Shown one piece after another: positions 2,078-43,674 of a stretch of 43,866 bases of DNA. The notes below the pieces were generated by a model. That model saw only the letters and a list, made by a program, of their open reading frames with translations, was not told where the DNA came from and did no database searches. Source of the DNA: an uncultured Candidatus Saccharibacteria bacterium (GTDB lineage Bacteria > Patescibacteriota > Minisyncoccia > Phycocordibacterales > UBA10002); the NCBI GenBank assembly GCA_964366535.1, contig CAYIUC010000005.1:1-43866 (forward strand), given 5' to 3'. How positions within the stretch are numbered: the stretch's first letter is position 1; each line of letters opens with the position of its first letter. The position numbers were made by a program, and so were the translations under genes.

Positions 2078-2262
2078 TCTAAAGGACATTATAAAGGACA
2101 TGTCCGTTACGCGTAAAGGACATTGTCCTTTAGAAACTGTGGATAAACTCCATAAATACGCAGAAAGACACACTTCTAATGGACATTCAAGGTTATAAAG
2201 GACAATTCTAAAGGACAGTGTCCTTTAGAATTGTCCTTTATAAATTGGTTGCTGTCCTTTAG
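2078..2262. promoter_or_regulatory. dense array of TAAAGGACA / TGTCCTTTA sites with nested palindromes and a consensus DnaA box
   Basis: Nine exact 9-mers occur: forward at 2080, 2092, 2114, 2196 and 2209; reverse at 2124, 2219, 2232 and 2253. There is a 19-nt palindrome at 2114-2132 and a 51-nt perfect palindrome at 2193-2243. TGTGGATAA at 2138-2146 is the reverse complement of TTATCCACA. Confidence 0.8.
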
Positions 2263-2297
2263 ATTTTGTGTCGTAACTACAAGATACGAGCCGAAGG

Positions 2298-5043: not shown

Positions 5044-5982
5044 ATGGAGGATGAAGTAAAAAAAGAAAATGCTCCGAGTGGCGCGCCGCGCGTGCGCACC
5101 TACGAGCGCGATGTAGCGGAGTTTATGGAGCGCGAGGGTGGGACTGCGGCGAAAATTGCGCTTGCGGAGCAAGAGAAAAGAATTGACCGAGAACAAAAAC
5201 CACCCCTCCTTCCAGAGCGCGATTTTTCTTTTCCTGCTCCCTACCCTTCGGGGAGGGCGGGGGGAGGGGTGGTCTCTATTCCATCTCCTTCCGCCGAACG
5301 CCTTCGCGTGTCTGCGCGAGTGCTTGTGTTATGGAGTATCGCACTGGTCTTCCTAGTGGGAGCAACGGGAATAGGATACTGGTATTGGAGCAACCTGCCG
5401 GAAACGGTGGCTGTTCTACCAACCACGCCAAACTCGAGTACGCAAAAAATACTGATTGCCGACGCGGAAAAGCAATTGAACACGGCACAGCTCACTCGCG
5501 ATTCGTTTATCGCCGCTTTCGCGCGCGAGCGAACATCCGCTTTAGCACTCTCTTCATTTACGCTTGTAGTACCTGTGGCGGCGCGCTCTCTCACAACCGC
5601 CGAATTCCTATCGCTTCTCAATGCTGGAGTAGACGGAACATTCGCGCGCGCGCTCGCGCCAGAGTTTGTACTTGGATTGCGCGGACTTCCGCAAAACCGC
5701 GCATTTCTCATTTTTAAAACCAATTATTATCAAACGGCGCTAGCCGGCATGCTACAGTGGGAAGATACGCTATTTAATGATGCTGGTCCGCTGTTTGGGC
5801 AAGCGATTGGAGGTGTGCAATTTGCCGACAAGACCATTAAAAACCGCGATACGCGCATACTTCTTGATTCTTCCGGAAAAACCTTGCTTATATGGGGGTT
5901 TGCAAACAAAGAAACCATTATTATAACAACAGATGAAGATACATTTACCCAAGTTATTGGAAAATTGGTGCAAACGGAGTAA
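5044..5982 (+). CDS. hypothetical single-pass membrane protein
   Basis: 312 aa with one hydrophobic helix (VLVLWSIALVFLVGATGIGYWYW). TATAAT at 5032-5037 lies 6 nt upstream of the ATG. The ORF contains a palindromic-element segment. Confidence 0.6.
   Translation: MEDEVKKENAPSGAPRVRTYERDVAEFMEREGGTAAKIALAEQEKRIDREQKPPLLPERDFSFPAPYPSGRAGGGVVSIPSPSAERLRVSARVLVLWSIALVFLVGATGIGYWYWSNLPETVAVLPTTPNSSTQKILIADAEKQLNTAQLTRDSFIAAFARERTSALALSSFTLVVPVAARSLTTAEFLSLLNAGVDGTFARALAPEFVLGLRGLPQNRAFLIFKTNYYQTALAGMLQWEDTLFNDAGPLFGQAIGGVQFADKTIKNRDTRILLDSSGKTLLIWGFANKETIIITTDEDTFTQVIGKLVQTE
5236..5273. repeat. G/C-rich palindromic element copy inside a CDS
   Basis: GCTCCCTACCCTTCGGGGAGGGCGGGGGGAGGGGTGGT is 34/38 identical to 22154-22191. 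Both are read in the same frame (..GRAGGGVV..). Confidence 0.85.
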
Positions 5983-10270: not shown

Positions 10271-10339
10271 ACCACCCCCTCTGTATCTCCCCCTTAATCA
10301 AGGGGGAGAAGCCCGAGCAGAGCGAGGGAGAGGGGGTGA
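10271..10339. repeat. nested G/C-rich palindromic element in the leader of the secreted-protein gene
   Basis: The outer arms CACCCCCTCT and AGAGGGGGTG pair perfectly. The inner hairpin is TCTCCCCCTTaatcAAGGGGGAGA. Confidence 0.85.
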
Positions 10340-10377
10340 TGTATTTTAGCAAGTTATTATTACGCAATAGCATAAGT

Positions 10378-12408
10378 ATGAAAAAACTTCTATGGTTGGG
10401 TGCGGTTGGCATTTCGGTATTTGCATTTGTCTCAGTTGCGCAAGCGCAAGATGTCGGGTTTGAGAATATCTTTGAGAGCGTATCGGTAGACCTAAAGGTA
10501 AACGGGCAAGATGGACCAGTAACGGTCAATTCTGGAGATCGCATCGTCGTCTCATGGCTTTCCGAAGGAGCAGCGAGATGCAAGGGAAACTGGAGCAAGA
10601 ACGACATTAAGACGAGCGGCACCGTATCGGGGCGCATCTCGCGCTCTGTTGTGATTAAAGCCGCTTGCATAGACAAGGAAAACAATCGCGATGATGATGC
10701 GGTAGTTGTAAATGTTACCGGCAAGCCGGCTGTTACTACACCTGTGCCTGTGACCCCCACCACCTCCGCGCAGCCGAGACAGCTGGTTTGCGGCTCTGTG
10801 GGAGATGTCAACGGTGATGGAGTGATTTCGCAAACAGATGCAGATTTGGTCGCACAACTTGTTGCTGGGTCACGCACGCCGTCTGCAGTTGAATTAGTTC
10901 GAGCAGATGTAAGCGGCGATGGAGAGTTAAAGGCAAACGATATAACCCTTATAAACCGTTATCTCGCTGGGATGGACTCTACATTTCCGCGTTGTACCGG
11001 AGCCTCAACCACCACCTCCGCGCAGGAATTGCCGAACATGACATTAAGCAAGGCAACGGTGAACTCAGGCGAGATGTTTAAGGTTAATTTTACTTTTCCG
11101 AGAAATGGCTTGGGCTCTCGACTATATATCACCTGCCCTGCTTCAGTGAGCACGCGCACTACTTCTGAATTATGCAACTCAAGCGTTGATGTAACTTCCA
11201 ATACTGACTGGACGCTCATTTTCTACAACACCTCTACACAAACTCAACGGGTTCAGTTAAGTTACAATGTAACTTTGCCGAACAATGCCGGTGTAGGTGG
11301 AGTCGGTGGTTTTGTAGATGTGTTACCCGCCCCCACCACCTCCGCGCAGCCGAAGATTACGGTGCTCAGTCCGAATGGGGGGGAGAACTACAAGGTTGGG
11401 GATACAATAAATGTCCGGTGGAATGTGGCAAATATCCCCGCAAATACGACCGTTGGGTTGCAGATTTCATACAGTTCAAATGCTGTCGTATATGAGGATG
11501 TGATTGTTTCAGAAAACCTACAACCAGATTTGAAAGGCGGGCATTCGTGGGTAATACCGACAAAATATGGGGGAAGCAGTATGAATCCTAATTTGTTCAA
11601 GATGCGGGCGATTCTATACGGTTCTGCAATTAAGGACACAAGCCAATTTCAAGATTATAGCGACTCTTATTTCACCATCACCGCCCCCGCACCAACCGCA
11701 AGCCCGATTACCGTAGACCTCAAAGCAAACAAAGGAGACGGGGCGAACGATGGGCCGATAACTGTTGCCGCAGGAACCTCCATCGGGCTCTTGTACACGA
11801 CTACTGGTAAGGTAGAACGGTGCACGGGTGATGTAGAAGGCGGCTCAAATGGGAGCAAACGAATCATTGCAAGCGAATCAAAGACCTACACAGTTAGCTG
11901 TACGCAAGACGGCGGCACTGGAACTGCGAGCGACTCTGTGCGCGTAGAAGTAACGCAGGCGATTACCGAAATTACCCCCGCAACCGCTCCTGTACTAAGC
12001 GCAAGCGCGCCCACAATCTCCGGCACGCGCACGGCAGCGGGCGACAAGCTCTACCCGGGTTCCATGTCCATTACCTCAACGATACAAAATAGCGGCGGAC
12101 CACTCACCACTTCCGTATCAGCTCGCTTCCAGTACTCGCCCAACAATGGCGCAAATTGGTACGACTTCCAGGAAGTAGGCCCGATTAGCACTACCCCCAA
12201 GAATGTCTCGCACACATGGGATGGCGGCGTTGGGAATTTCTGTTTCCGTGTCGCGATAGATAGCGGCACCGACAATATCGGACCTTCTGCTTGTATAGAA
12301 ATTCTCCCGCAAGCGGGGGCGTTTATCGGCGTATCGCGCGAACTAGCCGCGACTGCAGTACCCGATACGGATGTGTGGAACTTCTTGAAGGCGTTTTTTG
12401 GGAGGTGA
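10378..12408 (+). CDS. large secreted protein with dockerin-like repeats and Ig-like modules
   Basis: Signal peptide MKKLLWLGAVGISVFAFVSVAQA from 10378. Dockerin-type pairs are DVNGDGVISQTDADLV and DVSGDGELKANDITLINRYLAG. Three TTSAQ(P) linkers are each encoded by an identical 17-nt sequence. Confidence 0.75.
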   Translation: MKKLLWLGAVGISVFAFVSVAQAQDVGFENIFESVSVDLKVNGQDGPVTVNSGDRIVVSWLSEGAARCKGNWSKNDIKTSGTVSGRISRSVVIKAACIDKENNRDDDAVVVNVTGKPAVTTPVPVTPTTSAQPRQLVCGSVGDVNGDGVISQTDADLVAQLVAGSRTPSAVELVRADVSGDGELKANDITLINRYLAGMDSTFPRCTGASTTTSAQELPNMTLSKATVNSGEMFKVNFTFPRNGLGSRLYITCPASVSTRTTSELCNSSVDVTSNTDWTLIFYNTSTQTQRVQLSYNVTLPNNAGVGGVGGFVDVLPAPTTSAQPKITVLSPNGGENYKVGDTINVRWNVANIPANTTVGLQISYSSNAVVYEDVIVSENLQPDLKGGHSWVIPTKYGGSSMNPNLFKMRAILYGSAIKDTSQFQDYSDSYFTITAPAPTASPITVDLKANKGDGANDGPITVAAGTSIGLLYTTTGKVERCTGDVEGGSNGSKRIIASESKTYTVSCTQDGGTGTASDSVRVEVTQAITEITPATAPVLSASAPTISGTRTAAGDKLYPGSMSITSTIQNSGGPLTTSVSARFQYSPNNGANWYDFQEVGPISTTPKNVSHTWDGGVGNFCFRVAIDSGTDNIGPSACIEILPQAGAFIGVSRELAATAVPDTDVWNFLKAFFGR

Positions 12409-12425: not shown

Positions 12426-12569
12426 CTCCCCCTCGGTTGAGGGGGAGTACTCCGACTTTAGTCGGAGGGAGGGGGTGGGTCAGCAAAACACCACCCCTCC
12501 GCTTCGCAGACTCAGCACCTCCCCTTAGGTAAAGGGCAGGTTAAAAGAGAGGCAGGGTGAGGGGGTGTT
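12426..12569. repeat. two adjacent G/C-rich palindromic elements
   Basis: 12426-12480 contains hairpins CTCCCCCTCggttGAGGGGGAG and CTCCGACtttaGTCGGAG. 12488-12569 has outer arms ACACCACCCCTC and GAGGGGGTGT. Both end in GAGGGGGTG. Confidence 0.8.
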
Positions 12570-12622: not shown

Positions 12623-14548
12623 ATGTCGCACCTAGACCAACTGAATCCGCGCCAGCGCGAGGCGGCAGAGCATCGCGACGGGCCGCTTCTCATTATCGCT
12701 GGCGCGGGGGCGGGCAAGACACGCGTGATTGCGCACAGAATTTTGCATCTTATACAAAGCGGAGTTGCGCCGGAATCCATTCTCGCGATTACCTTCACGA
12801 ACAAGGCGGCACAAGAGATGCGGGAGCGCGTATACACCCTATTATCATCAGACCGCGCCAGATGTTTGCAGCCCACAACATCTGGCGCGGGAGACACGGA
12901 AGAGCTTCCTTTCATCTCCACCTTTCACTCACTTGGAGCTACACTCCTCCGCAACCATCCAGAGATTGCCGGGCTACCAAAACGCTTCACAATCTTTGAC
13001 CGAGGCGACTCCGTGCGCGCGGTGAAAAAGGCGACTGCGCTTGCCGGCTTTGACCCGAAGAACTTTGAGCCGCCGAAAATACTTTCTGCAATCAGCCGCC
13101 AAAAAGGGGAGGGGGTTACTGCAGACGCCTTCGCAGAGCAAGCGAGCGACTTCTTCCCGCGCGTCGTGTCGCGCGTGTGGGACGCATACGAAAAGATTCT
13201 CGCCGAAGAAAAGGCGGTTGACTTCGATGACCTTCTACTCAAGACATCGCTTCTCTTAAAGAAAGAATCCGCGCTACGAGAGCGCTATCAAAACCAGTGG
13301 CGTTTCGTGCATATAGACGAATACCAGGACACAAACCGCGTGCAGTACGACATCGCACGCCTCCTTGCCGAGAGCCATCGCAACATTGCGGTTGTAGGCG
13401 ATGCGGACCAGAATATTTACCAGTGGCGCGGAGCATCTATGCGCAATATTTTGGACTTTGAAAAGGATTGGCCTAATGCAAAAGTGGTAACGCTTGAAGA
13501 AAATTACCGCTCCACGCAAACGATTCTAAACGCCGCCAATCGGGTGATTGAGAAAAACAAACACCGCCTACCGAAAACGCTTTTTACGAAAAACGGCGGC
13601 GGGGAGCCGATTGGGCTTTTCGCTGGGCTAGACGAAGCGCACGAAGCGCAGTTTGTCGCAAGCACTTCCCAAGCGCTCATTGCGCACGGCACTATGGCTA
13701 GGGAAATCGCCGTTTTGTTTCGCGCCAACTTCCAAAGCCGCGCGTTGGAAGAAGCGTTTCTCAATGCCGACATTCCGTACCAAGTAGTCGGCGTGCGATT
13801 TTTTGAACGAAAAGAAGTAAAAGACATACTTTCATATGTTCGTGCGGCACTAGACGCACAAAATACAGCTGATTTTGCGCGCATTGTGAATGTTCCAACG
13901 CGAGGAATCGGCAAAGTAACACTGCTGAAGATTCTTGCGGGGCGGGAAGGCGAACTGCCGTTTGGTATGCGGCAAAAAGTTTCCGGGCTCCGCGCACTTC
14001 TAGCCAAAATAAAAGAAAAACTTGAGCATGAACAGATTTCAGTCGCTCTGAAATATATTCTTACTGCAAGCGGGTTGGAAAAAACGCTTCGCGAGGGAAG
14101 TGAAGAAGACGAGGAGCGGCTCTTAAACATCCGCGAGCTTATTGTCTTTGCAATGCGCTATGACGCGCGGGAGGGGGAGCGCAGCACGCTTGTGGAAGCG
14201 TTTTTGCAAGACGCAGCACTCCAGAGCGACCAAGATGAACTGAAAGAAGAGAAGAACGCCGTTCGGCTTATGACTGTGCACGCCGCGAAAGGACTTGAGT
14301 TTGATATCGTGTTTATCACAGGTCTTGAAGACGGGTTATTCCCGCATGCGCGACTATTTGCCGAAAGCGTTACTGCGGAAGCTGCCGAAGAGGAACGGCG
14401 GCTTTTCTATGTGGCGCTTACTCGAGCAAAGAAAAAGGTGTACCTCTCATATGCCGGTATGCGGAGCGTATTCGGCTCGCGGCAAGCAAACCTCCCCTCG
14501 GAGTTTATCTTTGACATTCCGGAGGAATTGCTAGAAGCTGAAACCTAG
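12623..14548 (+). CDS. uvrD: UvrD/PcrA-type superfamily 1 DNA helicase
   Basis: Motifs AGAGAGKTRV, FTNKAA, VHIDEYQDTN, LEENYRST and VHAAKGLEF. I chose the start MSHLDQLNPRQ at 12623, with TATGCT at 12609-12614 lying 8 nt upstream. Confidence 0.9.
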   Translation: MSHLDQLNPRQREAAEHRDGPLLIIAGAGAGKTRVIAHRILHLIQSGVAPESILAITFTNKAAQEMRERVYTLLSSDRARCLQPTTSGAGDTEELPFISTFHSLGATLLRNHPEIAGLPKRFTIFDRGDSVRAVKKATALAGFDPKNFEPPKILSAISRQKGEGVTADAFAEQASDFFPRVVSRVWDAYEKILAEEKAVDFDDLLLKTSLLLKKESALRERYQNQWRFVHIDEYQDTNRVQYDIARLLAESHRNIAVVGDADQNIYQWRGASMRNILDFEKDWPNAKVVTLEENYRSTQTILNAANRVIEKNKHRLPKTLFTKNGGGEPIGLFAGLDEAHEAQFVASTSQALIAHGTMAREIAVLFRANFQSRALEEAFLNADIPYQVVGVRFFERKEVKDILSYVRAALDAQNTADFARIVNVPTRGIGKVTLLKILAGREGELPFGMRQKVSGLRALLAKIKEKLEHEQISVALKYILTASGLEKTLREGSEEDEERLLNIRELIVFAMRYDAREGERSTLVEAFLQDAALQSDQDELKEEKNAVRLMTVHAAKGLEFDIVFITGLEDGLFPHARLFAESVTAEAAEEERRLFYVALTRAKKKVYLSYAGMRSVFGSRQANLPSEFIFDIPEELLEAET

Positions 14549-14554
14549 CGCTTT

Positions 14555-14626
14555 GCGGAAGGCAAAATTTCGTCCTCTTTACCCTCTCTACGGGGGTCCT
14601 ACGAGATACGAAATTTCGCCTTCCGC
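14555..14626. repeat. 72-nt hairpin element, copy 1 (19-bp stem, conserved 34-nt loop)
   Basis: GCGGAAGGCAAAATTTCGT, then a 34-nt loop, then ACGAAATTTCGCCTTCCGC. The loop is identical to that of 30291-30362. The element lies between the uvrD stop and the rsmA start. Confidence 0.85.
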
Positions 14627-14654
14627 TTCGCGCTCAACGAGTTTTGTTATTATT

Positions 14655-15488
14655 ATGTTTGCAAAAAAATCACTGGGTCAACATTTTCTACGAAGCCGCG
14701 CCGCATTAGAAAAAATCGCGGCGGCCCCAGCGCTTACGCCGACTGATGTTGTGTTGGAGGTTGGACCAGGGGAGGGAGCGCTTACCGTTCTTCTCTTAGA
14801 ACGAGCAGGGAAAGTCGTTGCTGTAGAAAAAGATGCGCGGCTTATACCGATTTTGCAAGAAAAGTTTGCGCGCGAGATTGCTGCAGGAAAATTGGGACTC
14901 GTGCACGCTGATATTCTCGAAATCAAGACGCCCCAGATGTTTAGAAAAACCGCGCCAGATGTTGATGGGCTTCAAACATCTGGTGCGGTTTTTCCGGCCG
15001 CCGCATACAAAATCGTCGCCAATCTTCCGTACTACATCACTGGGCAATTCTTGCGTAAGTTTCTGCAAACCGAAACACAACCGAGTATGATGGTTTTACT
15101 GCTGCAAAGAGAAGTGGCGAAACGCATCACAGCGACCGACAAAAAAGAATCTATTCTTTCGCTTAGCGTTAAGTGCTACGGGGCTCCGCGCTACATAACA
15201 ACAGTTAAAGCCGGCTCCTTCTCGCCGCCGCCGAAGGTGGATTCGGCGATACTAGCGATTGAAGATATTTCTAAAGATTTCTTCACGGGTGGAGGGGTTG
15301 TCTTCTCCGAAGAAACATTTTTTACTATTATTAAAAAGGGCTTCGCGCATCCGCGTAAACTACTTTCTAACAACCTCGACATCAGTGCATCTGTGCTGGA
15401 ACAATGCGGCATACACGCGCGGGCGCGTGCCGAAAATGTTTCTTTGGAACAATGGAAGTGTATCGCAAGTGCATCACGAAGTGCCTAG
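14655..15488 (+). CDS. rsmA: 16S rRNA (adenine1518/1519-N6)-dimethyltransferase
   Basis: MFAKKSLGQHFL start and the SAM motif VLEVGPGEGALT. The longer track ORF from 14553 merely reads through the hairpin element. Confidence 0.85.
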   Translation: MFAKKSLGQHFLRSRAALEKIAAAPALTPTDVVLEVGPGEGALTVLLLERAGKVVAVEKDARLIPILQEKFAREIAAGKLGLVHADILEIKTPQMFRKTAPDVDGLQTSGAVFPAAAYKIVANLPYYITGQFLRKFLQTETQPSMMVLLLQREVAKRITATDKKESILSLSVKCYGAPRYITTVKAGSFSPPPKVDSAILAIEDISKDFFTGGGVVFSEETFFTIIKKGFAHPRKLLSNNLDISASVLEQCGIHARARAENVSLEQWKCIASASRSA

Positions 15489-16415
15489 CATGGGCACGGT
15501 CTGTGCTTGTGATGGTAGAGGGAAACATCCGAATACTGCATACATTAAACACGGGGCTCCTTGCGGTATGTAGCTTCCAAGCATAAATAGGGTAAACGGC
15601 GCATTGAAATTAAGAAACGCTTGCGAACCGGTGTAATGCGTCATTAGTGCAAGTGGTGGTACCGAAAGAGGTACCATACCAACTAGCCAGTTGCCGCTAC
15701 AGGTGCAAGGAAAAACATACACGACCATCCCTCCAAACCCGGGTATCTGCGCATCTGCGCGCGGCATAAGTGCGTCCGTAAGTTTCTGAAACAAAGATGT
15801 AACTCTATGCCGCCACGGCGACTCCCAAGAGATAGTACGCACATTTTTTCGCGACTCGCTTACAAATTGCGTAAGAAAGTCGGTTGTTGTAGCTAGGGCA
15901 AGCGAGCGCATGTCGCCCGCAAGTTTTTCCAATTCTTCCGCAGAGCGGCCTTGTTCTCCTCCAACTCGCTTAACTATTTCCAGAAATTGCTCCAGATTGC
16001 GCGAGTTTGGATTTTCTTTTTTTGTCTCTTCTCCTGCCCTTAACTTAAGGGGAGGTGCCCCGACGCTTTGGTCGGGGCGGAGGGGTGTTTTCTTTTCGTA
16101 TAAAAAAACATTCAGAGCCGCTAGGGTTTTTGGCCCAACCACTCCTAGTTCGCCCTTAATCGCATGCTCGCGTTGAAACACCGCGACCGACCTTGCCGTG
16201 GCAGCGCCAAAATAATTTGTTTCCTTGCTAGGCGAGCCAGCACCGGTATTAGCAACGCGCGTTTCCGCTCGTTCGTTCAAAAGTCTCTGGAGAGCGAACA
16301 CATCGGGGCCGCGCGAACCAAATTGGAGATCGCGCGCAAAGCGCCATTCTCCTGCATACGCGGGCTGAAACGCCACGACACACAAAATAGCGGATATAAA
16401 TACGCGAGACATCAT
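15474..16415 (-). CDS. secreted protein with a PG_binding_1-like peptidoglycan-binding domain
   Basis: Signal peptide MMSRVFISAILCVVAFQPAYA and the motif GSRGPDVFALQRLLN...YFGAATARSVAVFQ. It contains an in-frame palindromic element. Its 3' end overlaps rsmA by 15 nt in convergent orientation. Confidence 0.65.
   Translation of the reverse strand: MMSRVFISAILCVVAFQPAYAGEWRFARDLQFGSRGPDVFALQRLLNERAETRVANTGAGSPSKETNYFGAATARSVAVFQREHAIKGELGVVGPKTLAALNVFLYEKKTPLRPDQSVGAPPLKLRAGEETKKENPNSRNLEQFLEIVKRVGGEQGRSAEELEKLAGDMRSLALATTTDFLTQFVSESRKNVRTISWESPWRHRVTSLFQKLTDALMPRADAQIPGFGGMVVYVFPCTCSGNWLVGMVPLSVPPLALMTHYTGSQAFLNFNAPFTLFMLGSYIPQGAPCLMYAVFGCFPLPSQAQTVPMLGTS
16031..16089. repeat. G/C-rich palindromic element inside a minus-strand CDS
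   Basis: CCCTTAAcTTAAGGG and GCCCCGACgctttgGTCGGGGC hairpins followed by GGAGGGGTGTT. On the minus strand it is translated as ..RPDQSVGAPPLKLRAGEE.. Confidence 0.8.
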
Positions 16416-17446: not shown

Positions 17447-17526
17447 CAACCCCTCCTGCCTCCCCCAAGGGGAGGTTCTGACCCTCCCTTCCCTTTGGGG
17501 AGGGAGTAGGAGGGAGGGGTGGTGTG
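17447..17526. repeat. nested G/C-rich palindromic element
   Basis: Hairpins CCTCCCCcaaGGGGAGG and CCCTCCCttccctttGGGGAGGG lie within CCCCTCCT...AGGAGGGAGGGG arms. The element ends in GGGGTGGTG. Confidence 0.8.
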
Positions 17527-21658: not shown

Positions 21659-22702
21659 ATGAAATTTACACATACACAAGCCCTAGAATCTCTTAACAAA
21701 CTCCCGCAAGAGACGCGCGAGCGCGTCACTTCGCAAGAAATAACCGACGCGACTATTCGTATCGCGGAAAGAAATGTAGTTCCAAAAGAAAAGATCCTTG
21801 CTTTTAGTTCTGCAGTAGGAACTGTACTACTCGGTTTGATTCAAAAAGAAAAACTTGCCGAGCAGTTGGTTGCAGAGTTGCAACTGCCGCCAGAAAAAGC
21901 CGCCGCGATTGCGGGGGAGGTGGAGAAAGAGATTTTTAATAGTTCTCCCTCTGCCCCTTTTTCAAAGGGGAAGTCCCCGAGTCCGTCTAAGGCGGACGAG
22001 GGGGTAGGGGTTGGTCACGCACAAGGCATACCCCTCCGCCCCGCCCCGCCAGTCGGCGAGGCGGGGCACCTCCCCTCTCAAAGAGGGGAGGGGGAACAAA
22101 AACAAATTTCTCCCCCTCGCCCCGTCCCCATCCGCAAGCCACTACCCCCTCTTGCTCCCTCCCTTTTGGGGAGGGCGGGGGGAGGGGTTGTACCCTCTCT
22201 CCAATCCCTCCTCGCCGACATTCGCCGCGGCACGGCATACGACGAGAATCGTATAGCCGATGCCTTCCGAAAAACGCCGATTGAAGTCAAGCAGTCGCTA
22301 GAGAGTGTCGGGTTTCTATCACGAATGGAAGGCGTTGCGAAAAAGTTTGGTTTAAATGTGGAAGAAACTGGGGAGCTCGTGAGCGAGTCGGGGCTCGTAA
22401 TGCTCGGGCTAACACAACCAATGAACTTCGTAGACAATCTCACGAAACGATTGCGACTGCCGCGCGACCGCGCGATGGCGGTAGGGCAAGCGGTAAATAT
22501 GGAGGTACTGCGCCCAGTGCGGGAAATTTTGCGGAAGATGAGTGTGCCGTCGGAGGAGCTGCGATTTGCGCCGCCCGCCACCCCTGCTCCTTCACAAAAT
22601 CCTCCCCCAACCCCCTCCTTTAGTAAAGGAGGGGGCGGAGGGGGCGGATTTTCTCCAGTGCAAAAATACACTACCGACCCCTACCGCGAACCAATAAACT
22701 AA
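21659..22702 (+). CDS. hypothetical protein with two homologous ~60-aa modules separated by a repeat-element-derived Pro/Gly linker
   Basis: IAERNVVPKEK...GTVLLGLIQ...LQLPPEKAAAIAGEV aligns with VAKKFGLNVEE...GLVMLGLTQ...LRLPRDRAMAVGQAV. The linker at 21945-22191 consists of palindromic elements. Confidence 0.6.
   Translation: MKFTHTQALESLNKLPQETRERVTSQEITDATIRIAERNVVPKEKILAFSSAVGTVLLGLIQKEKLAEQLVAELQLPPEKAAAIAGEVEKEIFNSSPSAPFSKGKSPSPSKADEGVGVGHAQGIPLRPAPPVGEAGHLPSQRGEGEQKQISPPRPVPIRKPLPPLAPSLLGRAGGGVVPSLQSLLADIRRGTAYDENRIADAFRKTPIEVKQSLESVGFLSRMEGVAKKFGLNVEETGELVSESGLVMLGLTQPMNFVDNLTKRLRLPRDRAMAVGQAVNMEVLRPVREILRKMSVPSEELRFAPPATPAPSQNPPPTPSFSKGGGGGGGFSPVQKYTTDPYREPIN
21945..22191. repeat. 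three tandem G/C-rich palindromic elements, in frame in a CDS
   Basis: Copies at 21945-22016, 22031-22097 (opposite arm order) and 22108-22191. Each contains CCCC...GGGG hairpins. Confidence 0.8.
22596..22652. repeat. 57-nt nested palindrome (AAAATCC-type element) in frame in a CDS
   Basis: AAAATCCTCCCCCaaCCCCCTCCTTTAgTAAAGGAGGGGGcgGAGGGGGcGGATTTT. It is translated as NPPPTPSFSKGGGGGGGFS. Confidence 0.85.
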
Positions 22703-29193: not shown

Positions 29194-29935
29194 AGACACC
29201 CGATGTTTGCCGCCTATCAACATCGGGTGTCAGGCGGCGCCGCACTACAACCTCCTGCACAATCGCAAAAAGGTTAGAAGTGGTCCAGTAGAGCGCGACT
29301 GCGCCGGAGATGGTATATGCAGCGATTGCCGCCACAATCGGCATTACATACTTCATTTGCATATGCATACCGTGCATCAACTCCCCTTGAAATGATCCGT
29401 CGCGCGAGCCGGGAGTCGGTGGCGGCATAACTAACTTTACCTGGAAAAATTGCGTGATGCCGGCAAGCGCCGCAAGAAAGATACTTTTCCCAGCAATGTC
29501 TATAAGACCTAAAAATTCCATATTCACTTCTGGGCGTGGGATAAAGGAGTAGCGAAGCGCCTCGTTGATGTCTGGGAGCCCGCCGCGAAAGAACACATAG
29601 TAGAGCGAAATAATAACAGGAAGTTGTATAAGAAGAAGGAAAAACCCCGCGAACGGGTTGATGCGCTTTTCTTTGTAGAACGCCATCGTAGCGCGCGCGT
29701 ACCCCTCGCGGTCGCCATCAAATTTCTTTTTTAGCGCGTCTAGCTCTGGTTGGAACTTACGCATAGCAAATTGCGTTTCAATAGAGCGTTTAGAGAGGGG
29801 AAAGAGTATAAGCTTCACCGCTATTGTGAGGATAATAACCGCGAGACCGGCATCAGCTCCCGGTAGAATGTCCATCAAAAAAACCAACCCATTATAGAGC
29901 GGTTGGTAGAATACTTCCTTAAACAATTCTAGCAT
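29183..29935 (-). CDS. yidC: membrane protein insertase YidC/Oxa1 (short form)
   Basis: 250 aa with GLAVIILTIAVKLILFPLSKRS...MRKFQPELDALKKKF. It lies downstream of rnpA as in the canonical operon. Confidence 0.9.
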   Translation of the reverse strand: MLELFKEVFYQPLYNGLVFLMDILPGADAGLAVIILTIAVKLILFPLSKRSIETQFAMRKFQPELDALKKKFDGDREGYARATMAFYKEKRINPFAGFFLLLIQLPVIISLYYVFFRGGLPDINEALRYSFIPRPEVNMEFLGLIDIAGKSIFLAALAGITQFFQVKLVMPPPTPGSRDGSFQGELMHGMHMQMKYVMPIVAAIAAYTISGAVALYWTTSNLFAIVQEVVVRRRLTPDVDRRQTSGVSKS

Positions 29936-30280: not shown

Positions 30281-30290
30281 GTGTCACTTC

Positions 30291-30362
30291 GCAGAAAGCG
30301 GAATTTTTTCCTCTTTACCCTCTCTACGGGGGTCCTACGAGATAAAAAATTCCGCTTTCTGC
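30291..30362. repeat. 72-nt hairpin element, copy 2 (perfect 19-bp stem, conserved 34-nt loop)
   Basis: GCAGAAAGCGGAATTTTTT, then a 34-nt loop, then AAAAAATTCCGCTTTCTGC. It fills the rpmH-rnpA spacer. Confidence 0.85.
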
Positions 30363-30366
30363 TTCG

Positions 30367-37175: not shown

Positions 37176-37679
37176 TTAGGTTTTCTTTGCAACATGCTCG
37201 CTTGTGGAAAACTTTTCAGTGGCGAGACAAGTTAGGCCTATCGCGAGCGCGTCGTATTCGTCGTCTAGGCGTTTCTTTTTTGAGAGAGGAACAAGTTTCT
37301 GCACCATTTCGGTAACTTGCTTTTTGTCGCTCTTGCCGTAACCCGTCACCGCTATTTTGATTTGGAGCGGCGTGTATTCAAAAATCTTTAGTCCTGCGCG
37401 CGCGGCCTCGTAGAGTACGACGCCGCGCGCTTCCGCTACTTTCATTGCTGTTTTTTGGTTAGAGAATAGAAACAGGGTTTCTATAGCAAGCGCGTTTGGT
37501 TTCCATTTTCGTATCGCATCTTGTACCGCGCCGCCTATTGTCGCGAGCCGCTCGCCGTGCGTTTGTTTTTTGTCGGTAATAGCGCACGCAGAAAAAAGTG
37601 CAATCTCTTGCCCGTTCTGTTTTTCCAGCACTGCAATTCCCAATCTGTCATACCCTGGATCTATAGCGAGCACGCGCAT
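37176..37679 (-). CDS. ruvC: crossover junction endodeoxyribonuclease RuvC
   Basis: MRVLAIDPGYDRLGIAVLE start with catalytic acidic residues in context. TACACT lies 6 nt upstream on the minus strand. Confidence 0.9.
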   Translation of the reverse strand: MRVLAIDPGYDRLGIAVLEKQNGQEIALFSACAITDKKQTHGERLATIGGAVQDAIRKWKPNALAIETLFLFSNQKTAMKVAEARGVVLYEAARAGLKIFEYTPLQIKIAVTGYGKSDKKQVTEMVQKLVPLSKKKRLDDEYDALAIGLTCLATEKFSTSEHVAKKT

Positions 37680-37836
37680 ATTGGTAGTGTAGCAAGTTAT
37701 CGGGCGGTTTTTAAATCCATCCCCCGGCCCCTTCCTTTACAAAGGAAGGGGAAAAATGCAACACACAGGAACATTAATTAAATCTTTACTATAAAACATA
37801 TATTTTATATAATGTAGAAATTAAAAGTTAAAAAAA

Positions 37837-38070: not shown

Positions 38071-38427
38071 ATGGTTCTCATCTACAACCAAAAACTTAAA
38101 CCCAGAGCCCGTGAATTAAGAAAAAATCAGACACCCGCAGAAGCGTTGTTGTGGGAACAAATCAGAGGTAAAAAAATTAAAAATTGCCAATTTGTTAGGC
38201 AAAGAGCGATCGCTAGTTTTATTGTTGATTTTGTGTGCCTACAGTCAAAGTTGGTGATAGAAATTGACGGACCAATTCATCTGCAACATAGAAACACCGA
38301 TACTTTTCGTCAGGAACAACTAGAGTTGCTCGGATTTAGAGTTTTGCGTTTTTCTAATAAAGAAGTTGAGGCAGATATTAACTCAGTGATTGGAGTGATT
38401 GCTTGGAATTTAAATCCAACCTCCTAG
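38071..38427 (+). CDS. DUF559 / Vsr-like endonuclease-domain protein (islet gene)
   Basis: Contains RELRKNQTPAEALLWEQIRGKK...QFVRQ...IVDFVC...LVIEIDGPIH...R...L...GFRVLRFSNKEV. Its last codons run into the flanking repeat. Confidence 0.7.
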   Translation: MVLIYNQKLKPRARELRKNQTPAEALLWEQIRGKKIKNCQFVRQRAIASFIVDFVCLQSKLVIEIDGPIHLQHRNTDTFRQEQLELLGFRVLRFSNKEVEADINSVIGVIAWNLNPTS

Positions 38428-38474
38428 CCCCCCTTCCTTTATAAAGGAAGGGGGGGTGGGGGGATGGATTTTTC

Positions 38475-39008
38475 TCATTCTGCGTTGGTGAAAACCTCTT
38501 GCACATCTTCGTATGCTTCCAGTTTTTCTACTAGTGCAGATAGTTTTGCAAGGTCTTCGTCGGAGAGCGGGGTAGTGGTCGTTGGTTTCCATCCGTCCGC
38601 CGTTTTCTCAAACGCCCACGCCGCGGCGCCTGGCCCAGCCAAGTTGCCGCCATTTTCCGATAGTAGGTGTTTAATTTCTTGCGAGACGCGATTTCGGCTA
38701 TCGGTGAGCACTTCTATAATAAGCGCCACACCGCCCGGCCCGTACGCTTCGTAGCGCACTTGTTCTAACGCCGCGCCGCCGCCCTCCTCCGTCGCTTTCT
38801 TAATTGCGCGCTCAATGTTGTCGCTCGGCATATTTTCCTTACGCGCGCGCTCTATGGCGGCGCGGAGCGCCGGAGCGTTTTTGTCGCCTTTCGCGCGCCG
38901 TGCTTCGTCTCCAATCAGTCGCGCGAACTTGCTAAACACGCGGCTCTTAACCGCATCGGTTTTGCCTTTTTTCTCTTTTATCTGACTCCATTTGTTGTGT
39001 CCGGACAT
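38475..39008 (-). CDS. yebC: YebC/PmpR family protein, shortened form
   Basis: MSGHNKWSQIKEKKGK start, YEAYGPGGVALIIEVLTDSRNR, and C-terminal EDVQEVFTN. At 177 aa it is shorter than the roughly 240 aa typical of the family. TATAAT lies 8 nt upstream on the minus strand. Confidence 0.85.
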   Translation of the reverse strand: MSGHNKWSQIKEKKGKTDAVKSRVFSKFARLIGDEARRAKGDKNAPALRAAIERARKENMPSDNIERAIKKATEEGGGAALEQVRYEAYGPGGVALIIEVLTDSRNRVSQEIKHLLSENGGNLAGPGAAAWAFEKTADGWKPTTTTPLSDEDLAKLSALVEKLEAYEDVQEVFTNAE

Positions 39009-43619: not shown

Positions 43620-43674
43620 GCGCATACTAGGCGGCACCAGATGTTTGAGGCCTATCAACATCTAGCGCCGCCAC

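What the first reader, a model, noticed from the sequence alone, without database searches (positions are those of the whole stretch)
5236..5273. The same 38-nt element sits in the same reading frame in two unrelated proteins
GCTCCCTACCCTTCGGGGAGGGCGGGGGGAGGGGTGGT (5236-5273, in the membrane protein 5044-5982) matches GCTCCCTCCCTTTTGGGGAGGGCGGGGGGAGGGGTTGT (22154-22191, in ORF 21659-22702) at 34 of 38 positions.

Both copies start on a codon boundary. They encode APYPSGRAGGGVV and APSLLGRAGGGVV. The surrounding proteins share nothing else, so nucleotide-level identity points to insertion or spread of a DNA element rather than protein homology.
Basis: seen in the sequence. Interest (0 to 1): 0.65.

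Follow-up and report, generated by a model that had tools for sequence, protein, structure and literature searches.

The report
Triplex-type DNA repeat translated inside genes
The shared 38 bases are two copies of a short G/C-rich, structure-prone DNA repeat of a kind so far described only between genes in E. coli; here it sits inside two unrelated genes and is read through as a floppy protein linker.

Summary
The two segments match at 34 of 38 positions, both lie in frame 0, and the two proteins share nothing else.

The segment is a DNA repeat, not a protein motif. Both copies use the same rare codons. An orthologue with 51% amino-acid identity keeps the element at 36/39 nt while the rest of the gene is 60% identical. 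Other orthologues lack it, carry it elsewhere, or carry a different repeat at that place.

Its anatomy is CCCTCCCC, loop, GGGGAGGG, CGGG, GGGAGGGG. This is a class II purine-type intrastrand triplex motif, the kind described in E. coli as BoxC / PIT / TMECO. The purine half is also a canonical G-quadruplex motif.

My scan finds 10 such motifs at 8 places in the 44-kb window, against 0.15 in shuffles. Five places are intergenic. Three are coding, all in predicted disordered linkers.

The consensus has no stop codon in any of the six frames, so an in-frame copy is simply translated.

The same element also sits in frame in Bacteroidota genes for ComM, a hydrolase and a restriction enzyme.

How copies spread, and whether a triplex or quadruplex forms in cells, is not shown. 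I rate it a new variant of a known kind, of moderate interest.

The parts
5236..5273 (+). Family-A copy 1, in ORF 5044-5982, sense strand, frame 0. Y arm 5239-5246 CCCTACCC (one C>A relative to the consensus), loop 5247-5249, R arm 5250-5257 GGGGAGGG, loop 5258-5261 CGGG, RH arm 5262-5269 GGGAGGGG. It encodes residues 65-77, APYPSGRAGGGVV.
   Evidence: the residues fall in the pLDDT<50 segment 52-76
22154..22191 (+). Family-A copy 2, in ORF 21659-22702, sense strand, frame 0. Y 22157-22163 CCCTCCC, loop 22164-22168, R 22169-22175 GGGAGGG, loop 22176-22179 CGGG, RH 22180-22186 GGGAGGG. It encodes residues 166-178, APSLLGRAGGGVV.
   Evidence: the residues fall in the pLDDT<50 segment 157-179
17479..17520 (+). 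Degenerate third copy (69% to copy 1), intergenic. Triplex motif 17484-17519: CTCCCTTCCC ttt GGGGAGGGAG tag GAGGGAGGGG.
17450..17475 (-). Small triplex motif of another family (CCTCCCC ttg GGGGAGG ca GGAGGGG), intergenic, next to the copy above. The same family lies next to a family-A copy in L120 and also occurs in L119.
22598..22650 (.). Family-B double motif that reads as a triplex motif on both strands: AATCCTCCCCC aa CCCCCTCCTTT agt AAAGGAGGGGG cgga GGGGGCGGATT. It lies in the C-terminal linker of ORF 21659-22702, residues about 314-331 (PPPTPSFSKGGGGGGG).
   Evidence: DNA hairpin z -4.6; pLDDT<50 over 297-337; same site in orthologue L119 5536-5597
37714..37751 (-). Family-B triplex motif with 11 perfect triads, intergenic, upstream of ruvC (37176-37679, minus strand).
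38413..38470 (.). Family-B double motif. The + strand has 13 perfect triads (CCCCCCTTCCTTT at AAAGGAAGGGGGG gt GGGGGGATGGATT). It lies between ORF 38071-38427 and ORF 38464-38754, and the ATG at 38464 lies in the RH arm.
   Evidence: z -6.1
10274..10309 (-). Triplex motif with 9 perfect triads (TCTCCCCCT tgatta AGGGGGAGA tac AGAGGGGGT), intergenic between the AbiEii-like gene and ORF 10336-12408.
5044..5982 (+). Host gene 1: a conserved hypothetical protein with one long hydrophobic helix. The element lies in the variable linker between the conserved N-terminal helices (residues 20-51) and the helix at 82-116.
21659..22702 (+). Host gene 2: a two-domain hypothetical protein directly upstream of PrgI-like and VirB4-like type IV secretion genes. 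Both of its linkers carry repeats.

Best explanation
The 38-nt segment is a copy of a short, dispersed, G/C-rich DNA repeat. Its parts, in order on one strand, are a pyrimidine arm (CCCTCCCC), a 3-5 nt loop, the complementary purine arm (GGGGAGGG), a 4-nt loop (CGGG), and a second purine arm that mirrors the first (GGGAGGGG).

This is the sequence definition of a class II purine-motif intrastrand triplex motif. The kind is known in E. coli as BoxC / PIT / TMECO. The purine half is also a textbook G-quadruplex motif.

Shown here:
- The lineage, a groundwater Parcubacteria-type (Ca. Taylorbacteria-like) bacterium, carries several families of such motifs at high density.
- They lie mostly between genes.
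- The copies inside genes lie only where the protein is a disordered linker.
- The family-A consensus has no stop codon in any of the six frames.
- Every coding copy keeps conserved protein sequence upstream and downstream in one frame, so it is most simply read through, giving a Gly/Pro/Ser/Arg/Ala-rich peptide.
- Identity is kept at the nucleotide level (same rare codons, unchanged synonymous sites). Presence differs among orthologues.

Inferred, not shown:
- Copies arise by a DNA-level copying process. Possibilities are template switching at the folded single strand, gene conversion between copies, or an unknown enzyme acting in trans.
- They then persist wherever they do no harm, that is in spacers, linkers and surface loops.
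- The fold (hairpin, then triplex or quadruplex) forms only transiently, in single-stranded DNA during replication or transcription, or as a hairpin or quadruplex in the mRNA.

The resemblance between the two proteins is a by-product of translating the same repeat.
For: Repeat and significance.

Architecture: my ITxF-style scan used stems of at least 7, at most 1 bad triad, and loops of 1-9 and 1-6 nt. It finds 10 class II motifs at 8 places in 43.9 kb, against a mean of 0.15 in 20 block shuffles. Other families in the window obey the antiparallel G.G-C / A.A-T / T.A-T rule over 9-13 consecutive triads. A parallel (direct-repeat) rule reaches only 7-8 triads at those places, mostly with a mismatch.

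The class and its E. coli family are described in PMC4666352. A TMECO-type 35-mer written from memory hits a median of 18 places per genome in E. coli genomes, and the five listed best hits lie under no annotated feature.

DNA level rather than protein level: codon usage, synonymous sites, no other homology.

Presence and absence: alignments A1 and A2 and orthologue DNA. A family-B motif in P0035 occupies the linker where the window has family A.

Linker location: pLDDT<50 and no secondary structure over residues 52-76, 157-179 and 297-337.

Stop-free frames: 6 of 6 for the consensus and copy 2, 5 of 6 for copy 1, against 11% of random 38-mers from the window.

Intergenic enrichment: 5 of 8 places lie in the 9% of the window that is non-coding.

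The same element lies in frame in loops of Prevotella ComM, a PA2218-like hydrolase and an Eco57I/MmeI-like enzyme.

The repeat is real in four independent assemblies.
Against: For family A itself the mirror rule is not discriminating. The G6 run lets the third arm also be read as a direct repeat of GGGGAGGG.

Both window copies carry a substitution in the pyrimidine arm. The purine half is invariant in all four copies of the lineage, apart from one synonymous change in loop 2 of the L120 copy. This fits a G-quadruplex or peptide constraint at least as well as a triplex.

The hairpin energies of the two copies are ordinary for their composition (z -0.01 and -1.6).

According to PMC4666352, the E. 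coli motif gave no triplex signal in double-stranded DNA in vitro, guanine methylation was not blocked in in vivo DMS footprinting, and purine triplexes do not form in RNA.

No mechanism of spread was found. There is no transposase among the 38 ORFs of the window, no significant target duplication, and no copy of the tested pattern in 2.9 million viral contigs.

Only about five family-A copies from this lineage could be examined.
Confidence: 0.8

Rival explanations
1. The selected feature is the G-quadruplex (GGGG A GGG C GGGGGG A GGGG) on the sense strand, not a triplex. It would act in the mRNA or on the non-template DNA strand, for example by slowing ribosomes or polymerase between protein domains. 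The upstream C-rich arm would be a competing hairpin that tunes it.
For: The purine half is invariant in the four copies of the lineage, apart from one synonymous change in loop 2 of L120, while the pyrimidine arm carries the substitutions. G4Hunter scores are 2.6-2.7, the highest in the window, and the three canonical G4 motifs in the window are exactly the three family-A copies. With quadruplexes allowed, the RNA fold of the bare element prefers a quadruplex. Non-palindromic coding copies lie 6 sense to 2 antisense.
Against: 81 of 125 occurrences of the G-rich 20-mer in other genomes keep the complementary pyrimidine arm upstream. The other motif families in the window (AAAGGAAGGGGGG and similar) follow the triad rule but are poor quadruplex formers. 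With 20-nt flanks the predicted mRNA fold is two hairpins, not a quadruplex. Most copies are intergenic in either orientation.
Confidence: 0.2
2. The element is a miniature transposable element that inserts with a target-site duplication of about 9-10 bp, mobilised by an enzyme encoded elsewhere in the genome.
For: Copy 2 is flanked by TACCCCCTCT / TACCCTCTCT (9/10). Copy 1 is flanked by TTTCTTTTCC / TCTCTATTCC (8/10). Relative to P0035, the window protein has the SFP / SIP motif on both sides of the element. A GCT trinucleotide precedes the pyrimidine arm in 26 of 42 de-duplicated copies from unrelated genomes, with no pairing partner. This could be a recognition or cleavage site.
Against: In pyrimidine-rich contexts of the window, repeats of this quality are common: at least 9/10 in 30 of 313 controls and at least 8/10 in 82 of 313. 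They are absent at the L119 and L120 copies. There are no terminal inverted repeats beyond the hairpin itself. No transposase or RAYT-type gene is in the window. PMC4666352 found no link of the E. coli family to mobile elements.
Confidence: 0.1
3. GRAGGGVV is a short protein motif acquired convergently, or conserved, in two linkers.
For: The peptide is identical in both window proteins, and GRAGGGV recurs in P0004 and P0002.
Against: Identical rare codons (about 2e-6 by codon frequencies). Unchanged synonymous sites. Variable position and absence among orthologues. The same DNA is read in another frame (GEGGGRG) in Prevotella ComM and the hydrolase. The same DNA is also intergenic at 17479-17520 and in Gillisia.
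Confidence: 0.02
4. The element is not translated. Ribosomes hop over it, as over the GC-cluster-derived 'byp' inserts of a yeast mitochondrion or the gap in phage T4 gene 60.
For: It is a short G/C-rich hairpin insert in coding DNA, with similar sequence on both sides of the window copies.
Against: Every coding copy examined keeps upstream and downstream conserved sequence in one frame counted through the element. This holds for about 7 independent family-A sites plus the family-B sites. That is expected only if the element is translated. The coding copies have no stop codon in the frame that is used.
Confidence: 0.03
5. Chance low-complexity similarity or an assembly artefact.
For: Both segments lie in Pro/Gly-rich, low-complexity linkers.
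Against: 0 of 100 shuffles give even one match to the 21-mer. Four independent assemblies span both copies in their own contexts.
Confidence: 0.01

Closest known systems
BoxC / PIT elements / TMECO of E. coli and other Proteobacteria (intrastrand triplex motifs; Holder et al. 2015, PMC4666352, which cites Hoyne et al. 2000 and Hoyne & Maher 2002)
   Same: The order pyrimidine arm, loop, complementary purine arm, loop, mirror purine arm on one strand (class II). G/C-rich, about 31-37 nt. Many dispersed copies with conserved arms and variable loops. Some occur as double motifs that read on both strands. Copy number differs sharply between close relatives.
   Different: The arms are CCCTCCCC / GGGGAGGG (8 triads) with a 4-nt second loop, not CCCTCNCCC / GGGNGAGGG (9 triads) with a 3-nt loop. 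The TMECO pattern has 0 matches in the window. TMECO is 'always located intergenically' in E. coli MG1655. Here copies are inside genes and translated. The host is a Parcubacteria-type bacterium, not a proteobacterium.
Rickettsia palindromic elements (Ogata et al. 2000, Science; from my own knowledge)
   Same: Repeated DNA inserted in frame into unrelated protein genes, translated, and tolerated because it lands in permissive parts of the proteins. It produces spurious peptide similarity between unrelated proteins.
   Different: Those elements are about 100-150 bp, A/T-richer long hairpins confined to Rickettsia. They have no purine mirror arm and no G tracts.
GC clusters and 'byp' inserts of yeast mitochondrial genes (Lang et al. 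2014, PNAS; from my own knowledge)
   Same: Short G/C-rich hairpin elements that colonise coding sequence.
   Different: They are organellar, and byps are skipped by the ribosome. Here the frame is kept through the element, which argues for translation.
REP / BIME elements and their RAYT transposases
   Same: Short G/C-rich palindromic dispersed repeats.
   Different: REPs are extragenic, have a conserved GTAG-type 5' motif and go with a RAYT gene. None of these features was seen here. REPs have no third arm.

Membership tests
Class II purine-motif intrastrand triplex motif (ITxF definition, PMC4666352) | Three consecutive blocks on one strand in the order 5' pyrimidine arm, purine arm, reverse-Hoogsteen arm 3' | tested here: met
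   Copy 1: CCCTACCC ttc GGGGAGGG cggg GGGAGGGG. Copy 2: CCCTCCC ttttg GGGAGGG cggg GGGAGGG.
Class II purine-motif intrastrand triplex motif (ITxF definition, PMC4666352) | Stems of 6-15 nt, at most one mismatch when longer than 7, loops of 1-6 nt | tested here: met
   Copy 1 has 8 triads with 1 mismatch and loops of 3 and 4. Copy 2 has 7 perfect triads and loops of 5 and 4. The consensus (L119 copy) has 8 perfect triads and loops of 3 and 4.
Class II purine-motif intrastrand triplex motif (ITxF definition, PMC4666352) | Third arm antiparallel to the purine arm, with G.G-C, A.A-T or T.A-T triads | tested here: inconclusive
   The rule is met for family A, but the G6 run also allows a parallel reading of equal length. 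For the other families in the window the antiparallel rule holds over 9-13 triads, against 7-8 for the parallel rule.
Class II purine-motif intrastrand triplex motif (ITxF definition, PMC4666352) | The single strand actually folds into a triplex (CD, NMR, melting) | not testable with these tools
   ViennaRNA models neither triplexes nor DNA quadruplexes. Only hairpin and RNA-quadruplex energies were computed.
TMECO / BoxC / PIT family of E. coli | Pattern CCCTCNCCC N3-6 GGGNGAGGG N3 GGGNGAGGG | tested here: not met
   0 matches on either strand of the window. The arms differ by one position in length, and loop 2 is 4 nt.
TMECO / BoxC / PIT family of E. coli | Intergenic location | tested here: not met
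   3 of 8 places in the window lie inside ORFs whose flanking sequence is conserved in frame in 11 and 18 orthologues.
Canonical G-quadruplex motif (G3+ N1-7, four tracts) | Four runs of at least 3 G separated by 1-7 nt | tested here: met
   5250-5269, 22168-22187 and 17497-17519 are the only three matches in the window. G4Hunter scores are 2.68, 2.6 and 2.28.
In-frame selfish repeats of the Rickettsia palindromic element type | Repeat inserted in frame in unrelated protein-coding genes and absent from some orthologues | tested here: met
In-frame selfish repeats of the Rickettsia palindromic element type | Element of about 100-150 bp forming one long hairpin; sequence related to the Rickettsia families | tested here: not met
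   The element is 31-38 nt with an 8-bp hairpin plus a third arm.
REP / RAYT | Associated RAYT (IS200/IS605-like Y1 transposase) gene and a conserved 5' GTAG-type motif | tested here: not met
   No such domain in the 38 ORFs of the window. The 5' flank is GCT, not GTAG. The rest of the genome was not available.
Any Rfam RNA family | Covariance-model match at the gathering score | tested here: not met
   No hit in the window or in 18 loci from other phyla. Only chance-level hits appear at E up to 10.

The most novel reading that the evidence does not exclude
A single, very widely distributed family of about 36-nt triplex/quadruplex-forming elements has a conserved 5' boundary (GCT-CCCTCCCC). 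It actively colonises protein-coding genes in frame across distant phyla: Parcubacteria linkers, Prevotella ComM, a Bacteroidota hydrolase and a Chitinophagaceae restriction enzyme. A conserved, still unknown, sequence- or structure-specific copying mechanism would drive this. The family would be a general source of new disordered linkers and loops, and of local deletions, in bacterial proteins.
Probability: 0.15. Interest if true: 0.8.

Novelty: new variant of a known kind. Interest (0 to 1): 0.55.

Why it matters
Intrastrand triplex motifs (BoxC / PIT / TMECO) have been described as strictly intergenic repeats of unknown function, linked to local genome instability. Finding the same architecture translated inside genes has three consequences.

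(1) It explains a class of puzzling Gly/Pro/Arg-rich peptide matches between unrelated proteins in metagenome-derived genomes. These matches should not be read as homology or as domains.

(2) It gives natural 'filled' and 'empty' sites in orthologous genes. From these the way such motifs spread, decay and provoke deletions can be worked out.

(3) It suggests that part of the variable disordered linkers in the small proteomes of these bacteria is built from genomic repeats.

If the cross-phylum copies turn out to be one family with a common mechanism, they would be a general, unrecognised mutational source of protein loops.

Tried and rejected
- Rfam: no family at the gathering score in the window or in 18 loci from other phyla. 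Only chance-level microRNA hits appear around the element.
It returned other phyla rather than relatives of the window.
- The metagenome scan with a pattern tailored to the lineage gave 9 hits, only one of them (L129) the known orthologue. Frame usage could therefore not be tabulated genome-wide.
- A protein search with the six-frame peptides concatenated, meant to count frames across all public proteins, failed. Only 34 candidates were collected and none scored (one search was a parameter error).
- Viral contigs: 0 matches to the element pattern.
- Target-site duplication: the flanking direct repeats (9/10 and 8/10) are not significant against pyrimidine-rich controls, and they are absent in L119 and L120.
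- Read-level polymorphism (excision, G-tract length): only assembled contigs at about 4-5x depth were available. No variant was seen, and absence cannot be concluded.
- Loop sequences of copies from other phyla show no enrichment of stable tetraloops; 23 different loops were found.
- Hairpin energy alone does not distinguish the two copies from shuffles.
- No paper in the library contains the element's sequence in a bacterial context, and none was found on translated repeats in Patescibacteria.
Full report
OBSERVATION

The two segments are as described. 5236-5273 and 22154-22191 agree at 34 of 38 positions. Both begin on a codon boundary of ORFs 5044-5982 and 21659-22702. They encode APYPSGRAGGGVV and APSLLGRAGGGVV.

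The shared 21-mer occurs twice in the window and never in 100 dinucleotide-preserving shuffles, even with three mismatches allowed. The repeat finder extends the match by 4 nt on the 5' side and adds a degenerate third copy at 17479-17520, between genes.

BLASTP finds nothing in common between the two proteins except the element. hhalign of the two orthologue alignments gives probability 0.08%.

Contigs assembled independently from four groundwater metagenome runs span each copy in its own context without a difference. So this is not an assembly chimera.

CONTEXT

The window is a whole 43.9-kb contig of a Parcubacteria-type bacterium. The closest named homologue is from Candidatus Taylorbacteria. 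The contig carries:
- rnpA-yidC and dnaA-dnaN;
- ruvABC;
- a PNPase-like gene, a comM/yifB-like gene and uvrD;
- a type IV secretion-like cluster (PrgI, VirB4-like).

No transposase was found.

Host gene 1 (5044-5982) has 17 orthologues. The N-terminal 45 residues and everything from the hydrophobic helix onwards are conserved. Between them is a linker of variable length and sequence.

Host gene 2 (21659-22702) has two conserved helical domains, a conserved C-terminal DPYREPI motif, and two variable linkers.

AlphaFold models give pLDDT below 50 and no secondary structure for residues 52-76 of protein 1 and for 96-150, 157-179 and 297-337 of protein 2. The element encodes residues 65-77 and 166-178. 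It therefore lies in disordered linkers. Conserved sequence on both sides is in the same frame in all orthologues, so the element is inside real coding sequence.

DNA ELEMENT, NOT PROTEIN MOTIF

- Both copies use the same codons, including rare ones (GCT 11% of Ala, AGG 6% of Arg, CCC 19% of Pro). The product of the window's codon frequencies for the shared residues is about 2e-6.
- The orthologue P0004 (locus L119) is 51% identical in protein. At the same site it has GCTCCCTCCCCTTCGGGGAGGGCGGGGGGAGGGGTTGT. That is 36/39 nt identical with 8/9 four-fold sites unchanged. The rest of the gene is 578/957 nt (60%) with 37/73 four-fold sites unchanged.
- P0002 (L120) has the element at a different place in the linker, next to a smaller motif. 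P0003 and P0028 lack it.
- P0035 (L124) has a different repeat of the same type in the linker where the window has this one.
- Each window copy differs from the L119 copy by two substitutions. The L119 copy therefore looks like the consensus.

WHAT THE ELEMENT IS

The consensus reads CCCTCCCC-TTC-GGGGAGGG-CGGG-GGGAGGGG. In order, this is a pyrimidine arm, its Watson-Crick purine complement, and a second purine arm that is the mirror image of the first.

This is the definition of a class II purine-motif intrastrand triplex motif. Holder et al. (PMC4666352) describe such motifs as abundant in bacteria. They characterise an E. coli family (BoxC, re-described as PIT elements, their TMECO) with the pattern CCCTCNCCC N3-6 GGGNGAGGG N3 GGGNGAGGG. 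Their findings on that family:
- The single strand forms a stable triplex in vitro.
- No triplex signal was seen in double-stranded DNA in vitro, and in vivo DMS footprinting showed no protection of the guanines.
- Earlier work found no promoter or terminator activity.
- The motif is always intergenic in MG1655.
- It is associated with local sequence instability.

A TMECO-type 35-mer that I wrote from memory matches a median of 18 places per genome in E. coli genomes, and the five listed best hits lie under no annotated feature.

I wrote a scan with comparable rules: stems of at least 7, at most one bad triad, loops of 1-9 and 1-6. It finds 10 motifs at 8 places in the window, against a mean of 0.15 in 20 block shuffles. 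The places fall into these groups:
- Family A (the finding): 5239, 22157 and 17484.
- Family B: 22598-22650, 37714-37751 and 38413-38470. Two of these are double motifs that read on both strands. One has 13 perfect triads in which T replaces A in the third arm, as the triad rule allows.
- A small family: 17450.
- A single motif: 10274.

For these other families the antiparallel (mirror) rule holds over 9-13 triads, while a parallel rule reaches only 7-8, mostly with a mismatch. For family A both readings are possible because of the G6 run. So the class assignment of family A rests on the sequence rule and on its company, not on a discriminating test.

The purine half of family A is also a canonical G-quadruplex motif. 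The three such motifs in the window are exactly the three family-A copies. No Rfam family matches.

WHERE THE COPIES LIE

In the window, 5 of 8 places are in the 9% of sequence that is non-coding. The 3 coding places are all in the disordered linkers named above.

In L119, six of seven motifs lie in the single orthologue of host gene 2. L124 has two double motifs, both in ORFs. Three other related loci have none. This echoes the strong differences between close relatives reported for Enterobacter.

The family-A consensus has no stop codon in any of the six frames. The same is true of 11% of random 38-mers. An insertion that keeps the frame can therefore simply be translated.

The shared frame 0 of the three independent sites in this lineage is not significant (about 0.11).

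BEYOND THE LINEAGE

The 20-mer GGGGAGGGCGGGGGGAGGGG occurs in many unrelated genomes. In 81 of 125 occurrences the complementary arm CCCTCCCC lies upstream. In one Planctomycetota genome there are dozens of copies with an extra hairpin nested in the loop.

Because I searched for the purine half, identity there is by construction. The trinucleotide GCT before the pyrimidine arm is not: it occurs in 26 of 42 de-duplicated copies and is unexplained.

Several of these copies are in frame inside well-known genes:
- Prevotella comM in at least three species (SSLPTGEGGGRG). This falls in a gap against the solved ComM structure 8rxd.
- A PA2218-like alpha/beta hydrolase (GSLPFGEGGGRG).
- An Eco57I/MmeI-like restriction-modification enzyme in a 34%-GC Chitinophagaceae genome (APTPSGRAGGGA, the same frame as in the window).

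A comM remnant (L085) has a deletion of about 125 nt that starts exactly at the 3' end of the G tract. This is in line with the reported instability, but it is a single case.

MECHANISM

Shown:
- This is a dispersed nucleotide repeat with the triplex-motif architecture.
- It is enriched between genes and, within genes, confined to disordered segments.
- It is kept at the nucleotide level, and its presence varies among orthologues.

Inferred:
- Copies are made by a DNA-level process and survive where they are harmless.
- The fold forms transiently in single strands.

How copies spread is unknown. The flanking direct repeats of the window copies (9/10 and 8/10) are not significant in pyrimidine-rich context and are missing elsewhere. 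None of 2.9 million viral contigs carries the tested pattern.

The purine half is better conserved than the hairpin arm. This leaves open that the quadruplex, or pairing of the G tract with C/T-rich sequence just downstream in the mRNA, is the property that matters. Ribosomal bypass is unlikely, because the frame is kept through every coding copy.

VERDICT

The element is a new variant of a known kind: an intrastrand triplex motif, related in architecture to BoxC / PIT / TMECO but not a member of that family. Its notable feature is that it is translated inside genes, both in a Parcubacteria-type lineage and in Bacteroidota.

Noticed in passing
L024 699-718, L100 4154-4173 (minus strand), L020, L085; L065 2510-2529; L007 4327-4346 (minus strand): The same element lies in frame in Bacteroidota genes. 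These are Prevotella comM (SSLPTGEGGGRG, in a gap against solved ComM 8rxd), a PA2218-like hydrolase (GSLPFGEGGGRG), and an Eco57I/MmeI-like restriction-modification enzyme of a 34%-GC Chitinophagaceae genome (APTPSGRAGGGA).
   Followed up: partly
L085 around 2047-2066: A Prevotella comM remnant has a deletion of about 125 nt, relative to L024, that begins exactly at the 3' end of the element's G tract. The upstream part of the gene is also lost.
   Followed up: partly
window 14551-14630 and 30287-30366: An 80-nt repeat (85% identical) is built as an inverted repeat around CCTCTTTACCCTCTCTACGGGGGTCCTACGAGAT. One copy lies at the start of the ksgA-like gene. The other lies between rnpA and dnaA, where an origin region or rpmH would be expected.
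   Followed up: no
window 2114-2266 and 611-724: Arrays of the 9-mer TAAAGGACA and its complement form a perfect 25-nt palindrome (2193-2243) upstream of the S15-like ORF (2337-2603) and the NYN-domain gene. Related copies lie inside the CCA-adding / poly(A) polymerase-like ORF. They look like operator sites.
   Followed up: no
alignment A1 (P0002, P0003, P0005, P0008, P0010): Orthologues of host gene 2 carry another translated repeat in both linkers (NTNIRMNTNLRMSTNKTE and variants). So the linkers of this protein family collect different genome-specific repeats.
   Followed up: no
window 22033-22095, 16025-16085, 12515-12548; L122 linker of P0036: A composite two-hairpin G/C-rich element (CCCCTCCGCCCCG..CGGGGCACCTCCCCT..AGGGGAGG) recurs in the window in both orientations. 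It also occurs in the linker of a host-gene-1 orthologue. It does not meet the triplex rule.
   Followed up: no
window 12853-12890, 14952-14986, 29197-29224, 43634-43668: Repeated GCGCCAGATGTT ... AACATCTGGCGC-type inverted repeats (up to 35 nt, 91% complementary between distant copies) of unknown meaning.
   Followed up: no
L001-L118 (JANOFL01 contigs): One Planctomycetota genome (SOY_64_metabat_58) carries dozens of copies of a roughly 70-nt repeat. In it the same pyrimidine and purine arms enclose a second hairpin (GCCGCTGCTTTGAGCGGTG).
   Followed up: no
L036 4489-4508 and L092 5532-5551: In two Flavobacteriia (Gillisia limnaea in L036; taxon of L092 inferred from the matching sequence context, not read from its title) the element sits 3 nt upstream of the ATG of the same roughly 540-residue gene. 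The loop differs between the two (TTTT vs CTTC).
   Followed up: no
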